The notes beneath the pieces are model-generated. The model saw nothing but the letters and a program-made list of their open reading frames with translations. It was not told the origin of the DNA and did not search any database. Of a stretch of DNA of 35,640 bases, positions 5,421-7,490 are shown one piece after another (the first letter of the stretch is position 1; each line of letters starts with the position of its first letter). The translations under genes and the position numbers were made by a program. The stretch spans positions 1-35,640 of the forward strand of contig CAXBPH010000041.1 in the NCBI GenBank assembly GCA_963977445.1. The letters are read 5' to 3'. The DNA is from an uncultured bacterium (lineage in GTDB: Bacteria; Hydrogenedentota; Hydrogenedentia; Hydrogenedentales; JAEUWI01).

Positions 5421-7490
5421 ATGGACACGCTAAGTGAAAAACTGTTGTCTGTCTACGAGGGCCGGGTGGTGCGAAAGGACCTGGTGCACCGCATCAAAAA
5501 AGGCACCAACGTGCCGACCTTCGTGCTGGAATTTCTGCTGGCGCGGTATTGTGCGAGCGACGATGAGGCGGAGATCCAGGCGGGCCTCGACGCGGTGCTG
5601 GGGACAATCCAGGAGAACTACGTCCGGCCGGATGAGGCCAATGCAGCCCAGTCGAAGGTGGCACAGAAGGGGAAGCACAAGTTTATCGACAAAATTCACG
5701 TCAACTACGTGGAGAAAGAGAAGCGGCATTGGGCGGCGCTGGAAAACTTCAACTCCAAGCGCATCGCGATTGCAGACAAGTTCTATCGGGACAACAAGCG
5801 GTTGCTCGAGGGCGGCATCTGGGCGGAAGTCACGATCGGGTACAACGAAATTGAGGACGATGACTACGCTTTCTACGTGGAAGATCTGCGACCGGTGCAG
5901 TTAAGCCGCTTCGACTTCGATCGTTATGCGGCGGGCAGAAAAGAGTTTACGCGGGATGAATGGATGGACCTGATTCTGCGTGCAGTCGGCCTGGAACCGT
6001 CCAAGCTGACACCGCGCCTCAAGATGCACTTCATCACCCGCCTGGCGCCGCTGGTGGAGCCCAATTTTAACTTCATTGAACTCGGACCACGCGGTACAGG
6101 GAAGTCCTACTTCTTCAGCGAGTTTTCGCCCTATTCGACGCTGGTCAGTGGTGGCCAGGCCACGAAAGCGACCTTGTTCTACAACAACCAACGTCACCGG
6201 ATTGGCTTGGTTGGATTCTGGGACGTGGTGGCCTTCGACGAGGTGGCCGGGATCAAGATTAAGGACCAGGACGCCATCCAGATTATGAAGGATTTTATGG
6301 CAAATGGACGCTTCTCTCGCGGCGTCGAAGTCATCGCAGATGCGAGCCTGGCTTTCGTGGGCAATATCGACCACTCTATACAGCAGGTCGTAAACTCAAC
6401 GGAACATGACTTGTTCATGCCGTTGCCGAAGGAACTTGACCTCGCGGTGATGGATCGTTTTGCCTGCTACCTGCCCGGCTGGGAAATGCCCAAAAGCAGC
6501 AGTGAATACCTCACCAACGATTACGGGTTCATCACCGACTTTATTGCCGAGGCCTTTCATTATCAATTCAGTCAGACGAACCGCTACGAGGAAGTCTCCA
6601 AACGAATTCGTCTGGGACGTTCGGTCGAGGGGCGCGACGAGAAGGGTATTAAGAAGACCGTTTCTGCGCTGCTCAAGATACTTCACCCCGATGGCGAGCC
6701 TGGTGATGTAGAATTTGAGGAGTACGTTGCGTATGCCGTGGAGAGCCGACGTCGCGTCAAGGAGCAAATGAACAAACGCAAACCGGACGATGAGTTTGCG
6801 AATATCAACCTTTCCTATTTCCGGGCGGATGGCTCAGAAGTGGAAGTGACATGCCCCGAATCGAAGGGAGCGATCGCCACCCAACAACCAGCGCGGCTCC
6901 GACTGGAAGTCGACGAGCCTGAGCAGTCCCTGGAGTTGCCGCCAGTCGTGGCACCGGTAGTCGATAATACGCCCGTCGCGATGCCTTTGCCTGAAGCGGA
7001 AACACGGCAACCCGTGGAGGCCCACTACACCATCCGCTACGACGACATGGGCCACACCTACGAGACCATCCTGGGTGACTATCTCGAAGCTGTGAAGGAG
7101 GTCTGGGTGGAGGAGCCTTACATTCGCGTGGCTCACCAGATTCAGAATTTTGTTCGGTTTTGTGAGACCTTGGCGAAGCGCCCCACCATCAAGAGGATTC
7201 ACGTACTGACTGCATGCGACGAAGCCACAGCCATTGGCGAGGTTCTCCCAAAGCTCGAAGACCTTAAACAGAGCCTCCTGGAGATCGACATCGCCCTTGA
7301 GATCGCGTTCGATCCCAATCTCCATGACCGAGAAATTCGACTAGACAACGGATGGACAGTCAAAATCGGACGTGGTTTGGACTTCTATCAGAAGCCCAAT
7401 AGCTGGTTTGAAATCGGGGTGAACGACTTGTCCTTGCGGAAGTGCCTGGAGACCAAAGTGGATATTTTCAAGCAGCAACAGACAACTTGA
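5421..7490 (+). CDS. brxL: BREX BrxL-like AAA+ ATPase with a C-terminal MITD1-like (MIT_C, PLD-fold) domain in place of the Lon protease domain, 689 aa
   Basis: BrxL N-terminus VVRKDL...[15 protein letters not shown], Walker A GPRGTGKS, Walker B VVAFDEV and AVMDRF. C-terminus [20 protein letters not shown]...[20 protein letters not shown]. Starts 3 nt after the pglZ stop. Confidence 0.92.
   Translation: [689 protein letters not shown]

What the first reader, a model, noticed from the sequence alone, without database searches (positions are those of the whole stretch)
5421..7490. BrxL variant with the Lon protease swapped for a domain resembling the PLD-like domain of eukaryotic MITD1
Seen: after the AAA+ core and a Pro/Glu-rich linker (~6890-7020), the last ~150 aa read [35 protein letters not shown]...[25 protein letters not shown]...[12 protein letters not shown], and no Lon Ser-Lys protease motif is present. 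Established: canonical type I BrxL ends in a LonP-like domain. Human MITD1, an ESCRT-III partner, has a PLD-fold C-terminal domain with, from memory, near-identical motifs ([51 protein letters not shown]). Inference: this BREX subtype couples a DNA-binding AAA+ ring to an HKD/PLD-like (HxR variant) nuclease or membrane-binding effector, and the eukaryotic domain may share ancestry with an anti-phage module. The fusion may already be catalogued bioinformatically; I know of no experimental characterisation.
Basis: partly seen in the sequence, partly recalled or inferred. Interest (0 to 1): 0.8.

Follow-up and report, generated by a model that had tools for sequence, protein, structure and literature searches.

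The report
BrxL with MITD1-like PLD tail
This is the last gene of a BREX phage-defence operon, a DNA-ring motor whose usual inactive Lon-like tail is replaced by a PLD-fold domain about 45% identical to the tail of human MITD1. The form is real but common and already described, and its likely DNA-cutting role has not been tested.

Summary
ORF 5421-7490 (689 aa) is BrxL_N + BrxL AAA+ ATPase + a Pro/Ala/Glu-rich linker + a full-length Pfam MIT_C domain (E 9.7e-50). No Lon_C match was found. The tail matches human MITD1 at E 5.6e-43. Its model superposes on 2YMB at 1.2 A rmsd with 45% identity.

The H-x-R-x4-D...G-R-G-x-D motif and an acidic/Gln/Asn cluster are near-invariant in 221 bacterial and eukaryote-type domains.

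It is not new. PADLOC and NCBIfam have models that fit it. I found 3621 protein clusters carrying the domain. Li et al. 2025 (PMC12065111) and the 2026 BREX survey (PMC12839542) describe it; the survey counts it in 1030 of 2913 BrxL-bearing type-1 BREX taxa. This scan reported the same architecture on another genome (e1-2634855).

Most likely mechanism, inferred at about 0.5: a ring translocase carrying a tethered PLD-type nuclease. A DruE preprint supports this by showing that MITD1-like PLD domains degrade DNA. The rivals are a pairing scaffold and membrane binding. My six literature searches found no experiment on this BrxL form.

The parts
5421..7490 (+). brxL, whole ORF (689 aa): BrxL_N + AAA+ ATPase + linker + MIT_C
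   Evidence: PADLOC BrxL model PDLC02508 covers aa 1-687 (930.5 bits). NCBIfam TIGR02688 scores 491.8 bits, above its cut-off.
5451..5843 (+). BrxL_N domain (aa 11-141)
   Evidence: Pfam PF20442, E 6e-46.
5871..6812 (+). BrxL AAA+ ATPase domain (aa 151-464)
   Evidence: Pfam PF13337, E 3.6e-122. Aligned to Acinetobacter BrxL 8emc.
6084..6107 (+). Walker A, GPRGTGKS (aa 222-229)
   Evidence: Read. Identical to the solved BrxL in the alignment. G222, P223, G225-S229 are invariant and R224 nearly invariant in 42 homologues.
6222..6242 (+). Walker B, DVVAFDE (aa 268-274)
   Evidence: D273 and E274 are invariant. It aligns with the Walker B stretch of Acinetobacter BrxL; the ATPase point mutant E280Q named in Shen 2023 lies in that motif.
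6873..7031 (+). Pro/Ala/Glu-rich, poorly conserved linker (aa 485-537)
   Evidence: The equivalent stretch is 53-77 aa (median 65) in 115 full-length homologues. P, A and E make up 12.5, 12.3 and 12.2% of it. Mean identity to this protein is 28%.
7050..7472 (+). MIT_C / PLD-fold domain (aa 544-684)
   Evidence: Pfam PF16565, E 9.7e-50, with the same coordinates. AF2 model pLDDT 95.9. MITD1 2ymb_A: TM 0.90/0.95, rmsd 1.2 A. VIA Z 24.8.
7110..7148 (+). First conserved cluster, E-E565-P-Y567-I-R569...Q573..N576 (aa 564-576)
   Evidence: Position 565 is acidic in 221/221 (E here, D in 116/120 BrxL). Q573 is 221/221 and N576 is 213/221.
7323..7382 (+). H635-D-R637-x4-D642-x7-G650-R-G652-x-D654, the H-x-R variant of the PLD HKD motif
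   Evidence: H635 220/221, D636 216/221, R637 221/221, R651 212/221, G652 221/221.
2886..5417 (+). pglZ, the gene directly upstream. It ends 3 nt before the brxL start (5417 to 5421).
   Evidence: PADLOC PglZ PDLC02561, 1183.5 bits over aa 3-840. Pfam PglZ.
56..1714 (+). GmrSD-family (type IV restriction-like) gene embedded in the BREX operon
   Evidence: Pfam GmrSD_N E 1.1e-32. PADLOC PDC-M55C/HEC-05.
1758..2876 (+). 372-aa ORF with a CoiA-type nuclease-like domain, between GmrSD and pglZ
   Evidence: Pfam CoiA_nuc E 9.1e-6, 26.3 bits against a 20.3 cut-off. No PADLOC or NCBIfam hit. Absent from the paralogous locus on C84.

Best explanation
Identification (near certain): this is brxL, the terminal gene of a type-1 BREX phage-defence operon. 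It belongs to the common BrxL subfamily in which the inactive Lon-fold tail is replaced by a MIT_C (MITD1-type) PLD-fold domain. That domain carries an H-x-R-x4-D...G-R-G-x-D motif.

Mechanism (inferred, about 0.5):
- The N-terminal DNA-binding region and the MCM-like AAA+ core assemble as an ATP-dependent ring on double-stranded DNA, as shown for the Lon-type Acinetobacter BrxL.
- Each subunit carries a PLD-type phosphodiesterase domain on a 53-77-residue flexible tether.
- That domain cuts DNA the BREX methyltransferase has not marked, by the metal-independent histidine-nucleophile chemistry of PLD nucleases.
- Because each chain has only one H-x-R motif, two tethered domains probably have to pair to give a working site. 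The pairing could be within a ring or between two tail-to-tail rings. Cutting would then depend on ring assembly.

What is shown here: the domain identities, the fold, the motif conservation, the intact Walker motifs, the operon context, and a predicted homodimer of the tail. What is inferred: DNA as the substrate, catalysis itself, and gating by pairing. The confidence given (0.5) is for the mechanism; the identification alone I put at about 0.97.
For: Identity: see the observation check, parts and Membership tests.

Operon:
- pglZ lies directly upstream.
- brxA, brxB, brxC and pglX lie on contig C122. Its terminal ORF is 81% identical to the gene that sits between pglX and GmrSD in the paralogous locus on C84.

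Fold:
- The AF2 model has pLDDT 95.9.
- It matches MITD1 at rmsd 1.2 A with 45% identity and at Z 24.8.
- The next best solved folds are PLD-type restriction nucleases and relatives: SauUSI Z 9.7, NgoAVII R 9.2, Tdp1 8.5, NucT 8.2, BfiI 8.2, Zucchini 7.7, Nuc 7.6.

Conserved polar pocket residues, counted over 221 domains (120 BrxL, 67 other prokaryotic, 24 MIT-fused, 10 eukaryote-side):
- H635 220/221, R637 221/221, Q573 221/221.
- Acidic residue at 565 in 221/221, D636 216/221, R651 212/221.
- By contrast, the Lon-type tail has lost its catalytic residues (Shen 2023 passages).

Experimental precedent: the DruE preprint (10.64898/2026.05.13.724313, passages read).
- Their shared pocket holds Asp, His and His-x-Arg residues.
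- D1740A abolishes ATP-dependent ssDNA degradation, and pocket mutants lose defence.

Partner domains are mostly nucleic-acid motors or binders: BrxL, NERD+UvrD_C_2, S1, IF2_N.

Pairing: the homodimer of the tail scored ipSAE 0.49 against a best control of 0.00.
- The tool's mark was reached by 20 of 30 proteins solved as pairs of one chain and by 1 of 23 solved as single chains.
- The runs agree in at least 95% of contacts, and partner pLDDT is at least 89.
- My own alignment was used, so these counts hold only roughly.

Published reading: both NAR papers propose the same enzymatic role.
Against: - No experiment exists on any BrxL of this form. Searches found none.
- The only characterised MIT_C protein, human MITD1, is known from what I could read as a membrane-binding protein: the title of Hadders 2012, and PI(4,5)P2 listed as its lipid in a review table. 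No catalysis is reported. The primary paper was not held.
- The motif departs from the canonical HxK(x)4D(x)6GSxN (K to R; GSxN replaced by GRGxD).
- The predicted dimer interface (domain residues 46-58, 83-94, 132-144) does not name H635, D636 or R637. The predicted pairing therefore may not bring two histidines together. MITD1 dimers are also solved, so the pass may reflect memory of those structures.
- As recalled, and as the Shen 2023 discussion states, type-1 BREX studied so far restricts without cleaving the phage genome. Those systems carry Lon-type BrxL.
- Dynamin_N-MIT_C fusions point to membranes rather than DNA.
- This copy has E, not D, at position 565 (4 of 120 BrxL).
Confidence: 0.5

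Rival explanations
1. Non-catalytic pairing or regulatory module. The MIT_C tail does what the Lon-fold tail does in canonical BrxL: it joins two rings tail to tail, or pairs neighbouring subunits, and tunes the ATPase. The conserved pocket is then a binding or structural feature.
For: - In Acinetobacter BrxL the C-terminal domain mediates tail-to-tail dimerisation of rings, and a mutation in it (Q661W) raises ATPase activity (Shen 2023 passages).
- The MIT_C tail is predicted to homodimerise: ipSAE 0.49 against a best control of 0.00. The mark was reached by 20 of 30 solved one-chain pairs and 1 of 23 single chains. Contacts agree in at least 95%, and pLDDT is at least 89.
- The confident interface uses helices and a loop, not the H-x-R residues.
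- The domain sits at the same position in the protein as the Lon-fold tail.
Against: - A scaffold does not need H, R, Q, N and an acidic residue to be invariant or nearly so across 221 domains with at least ten different partner architectures.
- The Lon-type tail lost its catalytic residues, whereas this one kept them.
- A long flexible tether is an odd way to build a rigid ring-ring joint.
- DruE shows that MITD1-like PLD domains can be active nucleases.
Confidence: 0.2
2. Membrane or phospholipid module. As in MITD1, the domain binds acidic phospholipids. It would place the BrxL ring at the membrane where phage DNA enters, or hydrolyse a phospholipid as an abortive-infection effector.
For: - The closest solved relative is described as a PLD fold that binds membranes (title of Hadders 2012, cited). 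PI(4,5)P2 is given as its lipid in a review table.
- MIT_C is fused to dynamin-family GTPases in bacteria: P0187, P0218, and the 947-aa Thiodictyon plasmid protein.
- Phosphatidylserine synthase and phospholipases D are among the fold matches.
Against: - Most prokaryotic partners are DNA or RNA motors and binders.
- After MITD1, the nearest folds are restriction nucleases.
- BrxL threads dsDNA through its pore.
- I could not read the primary MITD1 paper, so I cannot say whether its membrane-binding residues coincide with the conserved pocket.
Confidence: 0.15
3. A phosphodiesterase acting on something other than invading dsDNA, for example RNA, DNA ends or adducts (as with Tdp1), or a nucleotide signal.
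For: - S1 and IF2_N fusions occur.
- Yeast and human Tdp1 are among the fold matches (Z 8.5 and 7.2).
- DruE was assayed on ssDNA.
- A BrxL-MIT_C-Schlafen/AlbA_2 fusion exists (P0174).
Against: Nothing points to it directly. The BrxL ring binds dsDNA, and the published proposals favour DNA.
Confidence: 0.1

Closest known systems
BrxL with C-terminal MIT_C / 'HKD-endoDNase' (HRD motif), as described by Li et al., NAR 2025 (PMC12065111) and in 'Expanding the landscape of BREX diversity', NAR 2026 (PMC12839542)
   Same: Identical architecture and motif. It is the last gene of a type-1 BREX operon with PglZ retained. PADLOC model PDLC02508 fits end to end.
   Different: Nothing essential. This copy has E rather than D at position 565. 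It also sits in a genome with a second, 72%-identical copy in a paralogous BREX locus.
Acinetobacter BrxL (PDB 8EMC/8EMH; Shen et al. 2023, PMC10164562)
   Same: The N-terminal domain and AAA+ core match at E 1.8e-126 over aa 7-480, with identical Walker A and B motifs. By homology, the same ATP-dependent ring on dsDNA is expected.
   Different: The solved protein ends in a non-catalytic Lon-fold domain (about aa 498-679) that pairs rings. Here the similarity stops at aa ~480 and a long linker plus MIT_C follows.
Human MITD1 C-terminal domain (PDB 2YMB, 4A5Z)
   Same: Same fold (rmsd 1.2 A, 45% identity, Z 24.8). The same H-D-R, G-R-G-x-D, D-P-Y, Q and N residues are present.
   Different: MITD1 carries an N-terminal MIT domain that binds ESCRT-III and works at the midbody. 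This protein carries a DNA-ring ATPase and sits in a phage-defence operon. No catalysis is known for MITD1.
DruE of type III Druantia (bioRxiv 10.64898/2026.05.13.724313)
   Same: A nucleic-acid motor fused to MITD1-like PLD domains in an anti-phage system. Its pocket holds Asp, His and His-x-Arg residues, and nuclease activity and defence are lost in pocket mutants.
   Different: DruE is an SF2 helicase with two tandem PLD-like domains forming one pocket. BrxL is an AAA+ ring with one domain per chain. I did not align DruE to this protein, because no DruE sequence was available to me.
PLD-family restriction nucleases (SauUSI, NgoAVII R, BfiI, Nuc, NucT)
   Same: PLD fold (Z 7.6-9.7). An ATP-dependent motor coupled to a PLD nuclease in SauUSI. 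A single-motif domain that must dimerise in Nuc and BfiI (established knowledge, recalled).
   Different: Sequence identity is only 6-12%. Those enzymes carry the canonical HxK...GSxN motif, against H-x-R...G-R-G-x-D here.

Membership tests
BrxL (BREX type 1) | BrxL_N domain plus BrxL-type AAA+ ATPase with intact Walker A and B | tested here: met
   Pfam 6e-46 and 3.6e-122. GPRGTGKS and DVVAFDE present. E 1.8e-126 to 8emc.
BrxL (BREX type 1) | Passes a curated BrxL model | tested here: met
   NCBIfam TIGR02688 scores 491.8 bits against a 329.3 cut-off. PADLOC PDLC02508 scores 930.5 bits over aa 1-687.
BrxL (BREX type 1) | Last gene of an operon with brxA, brxB, brxC, pglX and pglZ | tested here: inconclusive
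   pglZ is adjacent. The window starts at a contig end. brxA/B/C/pglX lie on C122, whose terminal ORF is 81% identical to the gene preceding GmrSD in the paralogous C84 locus. The join across the contig break is inferred, not read.
Lon-type BrxL (TIGR02653) | C-terminal Lon-fold domain, and a score above the family cut-off | tested here: not met
   565.5 bits against a 628.25 cut-off, with the match ending at aa 484 of 689. No Lon_C family at E <= 0.01.
MIT_C (Pfam PF16565) | Full-length match above the gathering score | tested here: met
   168.6 bits against 25, profile positions 1-142 of 142. 172.9 bits in the six-frame search.
MIT_C (Pfam PF16565) | MITD1-type PLD fold | tested here: met
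   pLDDT 95.9. TM 0.90/0.95 and rmsd 1.2 A to 2ymb_A. Z 24.8.
MIT_C (Pfam PF16565) | Conserved acidic residue after strand 2 and an HDR motif (as defined in PMC12065111) | tested here: met
   E565 and H635-D636-R637 are present.
PLD superfamily HKD nucleases | Canonical HxK(x)4D(x)6GSxN motif | tested here: not met
   The sequence reads [20 protein letters not shown]: K is replaced by R and GSxN by G-R-G-x-D. The canonical motif is recalled from established knowledge.
PLD superfamily HKD nucleases | PLD fold | tested here: met
   SauUSI Z 9.7, NgoAVII 9.2, NucT 8.2, BfiI 8.2, Zucchini 7.7, Nuc 7.6. Foldseek probability 1.00 for PLD2, PS synthase and Zucchini.
PLD superfamily HKD nucleases | Two motif histidines brought together by dimerisation or a tandem repeat | tested here: inconclusive
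   A homodimer is predicted (0.49 against 0.00 for the best control). The H-x-R residues are not among the confident contacts, and no coordinates were available to measure the distance between the histidines.
PLD superfamily HKD nucleases | Phosphodiester hydrolysis through a phosphohistidine intermediate | not testable with these tools
   Needs biochemistry.

The most novel reading that the evidence does not exclude
BrxL-MIT_C is an assembly-gated nuclease. Single-motif PLD domains on long tethers form a two-histidine site only when rings load and pair on unmodified DNA. About a third of type-1 BREX systems would then really cut phage DNA, contrary to the usual description of BREX. Because the same pocket is invariant in animals, amoebozoans and a choanoflagellate, human MITD1 would be a cryptic phosphodiesterase sharing ancestry with a prokaryotic defence module.
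Probability: 0.3. Interest if true: 0.75.

Novelty: already known. Interest (0 to 1): 0.35.

Why it matters
The mechanism of BREX restriction is still unsettled, and BrxL is its least understood part. A BrxL form carrying an apparently intact PLD-type active site, found in about a third of type-1 systems, offers a simple test. Does BREX ever cut DNA through BrxL, and does the C-terminal domain act as effector or scaffold?

The roughly 45% identity to human MITD1, with every pocket residue kept, makes the same question testable for a human cytokinesis protein with no known enzymatic activity.

None of this is new as an observation. Its value lies in the experiment that has not been done.

Tried and rejected
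- **Lon protease tail:** no Lon_C hit at E <= 0.01, and TIGR02653 is below its cut-off. Rejected.
- **Full-length fold:** AF2 on a 42-row alignment gave mean pLDDT 54.8 and pTM 0.46, with much of the AAA+ core also below 50. It therefore says nothing about how the tail sits against the ring or about linker disorder. Not used.
- **Profile of the domain against PDB sequences:** only MITD1 matched in the MIT_C part. The other hits came from the MIT columns of my alignment. No further solved relative was found by sequence.
- **Direction of transfer:**
  - Quick tree: 34 eukaryote-side rows split from 74 prokaryotic rows at SH-aLRT 90, not starred.
  - Careful tree (680 s, bootstrap not settled, correlation 0.941): 35 rows, the 34 plus one unlabelled row, lie on one side of a branch at 90/95.
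  - I defined the 34-row set on the quick tree itself. It was one side of a branch in only 49% of 200 bootstrap trees.
  - The tree is unrooted, so no donor can be named.
  - Rows: 108 were used. The 120 BrxL were thinned to 7 at 72% identity, and hits without a near full-length domain were dropped.
- **An archaeal MIT+MIT_C protein:** P0229 is labelled 'archaeon' on a 3110-bp contig. A scan of genome contigs with P0229+P0198 returned one locus, a betaproteobacterial MAG at 33% identity. The archaeal label is not corroborated, and a mis-binned eukaryotic contig is as likely.
- **Hadders et al. 2012 (PMC3491508):** not held. Statements about MITD1 membrane binding rest on its title and on secondary passages.
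- **Other features near the gene:**
  - No Rfam family and no tRNA in the window.
  - One terminator-like hairpin was found in 7300-8600, against 1.3 expected.
  - GC content shows no clear island boundary.
- **Phage records:** no MIT_C match in 50,697 records.
- **Supplementary data** of the two NAR papers were not opened.
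Full report
**What is there.**
- The window holds one open frame at 5421..7490 on the + strand, encoding 689 aa.
- Pfam splits it into BrxL_N (aa 11-141, E 6e-46), the BrxL AAA+ ATPase (151-464, E 3.6e-122) and a complete MIT_C domain (544-684, profile 1-142 of 142, E 9.7e-50). No Lon_C family appears at E <= 0.01.
- PADLOC's BrxL model PDLC02508 fits from residue 1 to 687 (930.5 bits). 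This architecture therefore already has its own defence-system model.
- NCBIfam TIGR02688 ('BREX system Lon protease-like protein BrxL') is passed at 491.8 bits against 329.3. TIGR02653, the Lon-tailed form, falls short at 565.5 against 628.25 and stops matching at residue 484.
- Against solved structures, residues 7-480 match Acinetobacter BrxL (8emc) at E 1.8e-126. Residues 538-688 match human MITD1 (2ymb, 4a5z) at about 1e-41. The tail alone gives 5.6e-43.

**The tail.**
- An AlphaFold2 model of residues 529-689, built on a 41-row alignment, has mean pLDDT 95.9 and pTM 0.90.
- Foldseek puts MITD1 first (TM 0.90/0.95, rmsd 1.2 A, 45% identity), followed by PLD-superfamily members.
- An independent all-against-representatives alignment gives MITD1 at Z 24.8. 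Next come SauUSI 9.7, NgoAVII R-protein 9.2, yeast Tdp1 8.5, phosphatidylserine synthase 8.3, NucT 8.2, BfiI 8.2, Zucchini 7.7 and Nuc 7.6.
- The sequence reads H635-D-R637-E-I-R-L-D642-N-G-W-T-V-K-I-G650-R-G652-L-D654. This is the HxK(x)4D spacing with R in place of K, and G-R-G-x-D where canonical enzymes have GSxN (the canonical motif is recalled).
- Conservation was counted in 221 near full-length domains: 120 BrxL-fused, 67 other prokaryotic, 24 MIT-fused and 10 that fall on the eukaryote side of the tree.

| Residue | Conserved in |
|---|---|
| H635 | 220/221 |
| R637 | 221/221 |
| Q573 | 221/221 |
| position 565 acidic | 221/221 |
| G652 | 221/221 |
| D636 | 216/221 |
| C675 | 218/221 |
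| C581 | 215/221 |
| R673 | 215/221 |
| N576 | 213/221 |
| R651 | 212/221 |

- This copy has E565, where 116 of 120 BrxL have D.

**The linker and motor.**
- Between the ATPase and the tail lies a stretch rich in Pro, Ala and Glu. It is 53-77 residues long (median 65) in 115 full-length homologues.
- It is only 28% identical to this protein on average, against 78-79% in the N-terminal and ATPase domains and 67% in MIT_C.
- Walker A (GPRGTGKS) and Walker B (DVVAFDE) are intact and conserved (see parts).
- A full-length fold was too poor to use (pLDDT 54.8).

**Surroundings.**
- Upstream on the same strand lie a GmrSD-family gene (56-1714), a 372-aa ORF with a CoiA-type nuclease-like domain (1758-2876) and pglZ (2886-5417).
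- The window is a whole contig that starts inside the operon.
- brxA, brxB, brxC and pglX lie on contig C122. Its last ORF runs off the contig end and is 81% identical to the gene that precedes GmrSD in a second, complete BREX locus on contig C84.
- The C84 locus ends in its own BrxL-MIT_C, which is 72% identical to this one.
- Downstream of brxL come about 965 bases without a convincing ORF. After that the genes are ordinary: a glycosyl-hydrolase-like protein, two-component sensors, surface Ig-repeat proteins and polysaccharide synthesis.
- No tRNA and no Rfam family is present.

**How common it is.**
- A word-indexed search with the tail, restricted to proteins of 378-1206 aa, found 3621 clusters at E <= 1e-3 among 3931 candidates.
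- Of the 120 best, 115 (this protein included) are BrxL_N + ATPase + MIT_C. Four are shorter ATPase + MIT_C pieces, and one is a PglZ fragment joined to MIT_C.
- The sources name them BrxL in Desulfobacula, Planctomycetes, Thiorhodococcus, Limnohabitans, Acidovorax, Mesorhizobium, Achromobacter, Novosphingobium, Firmicutes and others.
- An exhaustive phmmer search over 1.84 billion representatives found 1188 proteins at E <= 1e-3, 609 at <= 1e-10 and 84 at <= 1e-30.
- In the window's own phylum, MIT_C passes its cut-off in 5 of 135 genomes held. In the genus that is this genome plus 1 of 8 others. The distribution is patchy, as expected of a defence island.
- Among 72,556 plasmid records, 24 carry the domain. 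Of these, 18 lie under genes annotated brxL or Lon protease. None of 50,697 phage records has it.

**Partners of the domain.** I scanned 85 of the 150 best representatives with Pfam and left out 65 without scanning them, choosing mostly the shorter, fragment-like entries.
- 24 carry an N-terminal MIT domain.
- 7 carry the BrxL ATPase, one of them with an added Schlafen/AlbA_2 domain.
- 10 carry other partners: FHA, S1, IF2_N (two), Dynamin_N (two), NERD + UvrD_C_2, DUF2196, Listeria-Bacteroides repeats and an RsmJ fragment.
- 44 show MIT_C alone.
- The MIT-fused proteins that carry names come from chicken, a sponge, a mantis shrimp, a flatworm, a choanoflagellate and three amoebozoans.
- A dynamin-MIT_C protein of 947 aa is annotated on a Thiodictyon plasmid.

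**Phylogeny.**
- In a 108-row tree of the domain, the MIT-fused rows and a few short unlabelled ones lie together.
- The quick tree gives SH-aLRT 90 for this split. The careful tree gives 90/95 for a 35-row side.
- The bootstrap had not settled. The 34-row set, which I defined on the quick tree itself, is one side of a branch in only 49% of 200 bootstrap trees.
- The tree is unrooted. Homology is certain and a single eukaryote-type lineage is likely. The much wider range of prokaryotic architectures is consistent with a prokaryotic origin, but this does not demonstrate one.

**What is in print.**
- Li et al. [quoted passage not shown] - The 2026 NAR survey of BREX (PMC12839542; passages read) counts 1030 of 2913 BrxL-bearing type-1 taxa in which the LonP domain is replaced by an 'HKD-endoDNase' with an HRD motif. 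It proposes direct DNA degradation.
- Shen et al. 2023 (PMC10164562; passages read) show that the Lon-fold tail of the canonical protein is non-catalytic and pairs rings tail to tail.
- A 2026 preprint on Druantia (10.64898/2026.05.13.724313; passages read) reports that DruE ends in two PLD-like domains closely resembling MITD1. Their shared pocket is needed for ATP-dependent DNA degradation and for defence.
- Six searches found no experiment on a BrxL of this form.
- This scan had already reported the same architecture on another genome with the same verdict (e1-2634855).

**Mechanism.** By homology, the motor part should form an ATP-dependent ring on dsDNA. I read the tail as a tethered PLD-type nuclease (about 0.5), for four reasons:
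- its polar pocket is kept under strict selection in every lineage;
- its nearest folds after MITD1 are restriction nucleases;
- its usual partners handle nucleic acids;
- DruE provides an assayed precedent.

One chain has one H-x-R motif, so two tails probably need to pair. A homodimer of the tail is predicted: ipSAE 0.49 against a best control of 0.00. The mark was reached by 20 of 30 proteins solved as one-chain pairs and by 1 of 23 solved as single chains. Contacts agree in at least 95%, and partner pLDDT is at least 89. My own alignment was used, so the counts hold only roughly.

Two cautions apply to that prediction:
- MITD1 dimers are solved, so the pass may be memory.
- The confident contacts (domain residues 46-58, 83-94, 132-144) do not include the H-x-R residues, so it is open whether this pairing builds a joint site.

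The rivals are a non-catalytic pairing or regulatory module (0.2), a membrane or lipid module as in MITD1 and as the dynamin fusions hint (0.15), and a phosphodiesterase with another substrate (0.1).

**Verdict.** Its interest lies in an experiment that has not been done, not in the finding itself.

Noticed in passing
G000 contig C84 (L013 3014-19936, L014) compared with window 56-7490: The genome carries a second, complete type-1 BREX locus with the same layout: brxC, a UvrD-like 901-aa helicase, pglX, a 402-aa unknown gene, GmrSD, pglZ and brxL-MIT_C. Its BrxL is 72% identical to the window's. PglZ or BrxB matches also occur on contigs C10 and C39.
   Followed up: partly
G000 contig C122 (L015 about 3832-3841, minus strand): The pglX that probably belongs to the window's operon is broken into three ORFs (740, 304 and 653 aa). 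Similarity to the intact C84 PglX ends (residue 635 of the first ORF) about where a run of nine C lies. This looks like a slipped-strand (phase-variable) off state or an assembly error. The second break matches the two-gene PglX form that PADLOC models separately.
   Followed up: partly
window 1758-2876 (+): A 372-aa ORF with a CoiA-type nuclease-like domain (26.3 bits against a 20.3 cut-off) lies between GmrSD and pglZ. It has no PADLOC or NCBIfam match and no counterpart in the paralogous locus on C84.
   Followed up: partly
L013 1890-2750 (-), contig C84: An ORF with the N-terminal domain of the anti-restriction factor ArdC lies just downstream of the second brxL. This hints at a mobile-element setting.
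   Followed up: no
window 7491-8456: About 965 bases after brxL hold no ORF over 74 aa, no tRNA and no Rfam match. One terminator-like hairpin lies at 7778-7806, which is no more than chance gives.
   Followed up: partly
L017 4634-7477 (Thiodictyon plasmid pTs485, WP_100923113.1); also P0187 and P0218: Bacterial dynamin-family GTPase fused to MIT_C. In Thiodictyon it sits next to a GNAT/DUF1778 toxin-antitoxin pair. So a membrane-remodelling GTPase is fused to MIT_C in bacteria, while in eukaryotes the same domain is fused to the ESCRT-III-binding MIT domain.
   Followed up: partly
P0174 (858 aa, Verrucomicrobiales MAG): A BrxL-MIT_C with an extra C-terminal Schlafen/AlbA_2 domain.
   Followed up: no
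P0229 (339 aa) and P0198 (361 aa): These are MIT + MIT_C proteins, the MITD1 architecture. One is labelled 'archaeon' on a 3110-bp MAG contig, and its linker is rich in Ser, Thr and Pro. No archaeal genome in genome contigs confirmed it, so a mis-binned eukaryotic contig is as likely. If it is truly archaeal, the fusion would predate eukaryotes.
   Followed up: partly
P0092 (517 aa); L016 5424-7465 (Hymenobacter plasmid): Two decayed loci. One is a protein joining the start of a PglZ domain to MIT_C. The other is a brxL broken into five annotated pieces, the last of which is named 'MIT C-terminal domain-containing protein'.
   Followed up: partly
aa 581 and 675 of the window protein (nt 7161-7163 and 7443-7445): Two cysteines are nearly invariant across bacterial and eukaryotic MIT_C (215/221 and 218/221). 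PLD chemistry does not obviously need them, and I have no explanation.
   Followed up: no
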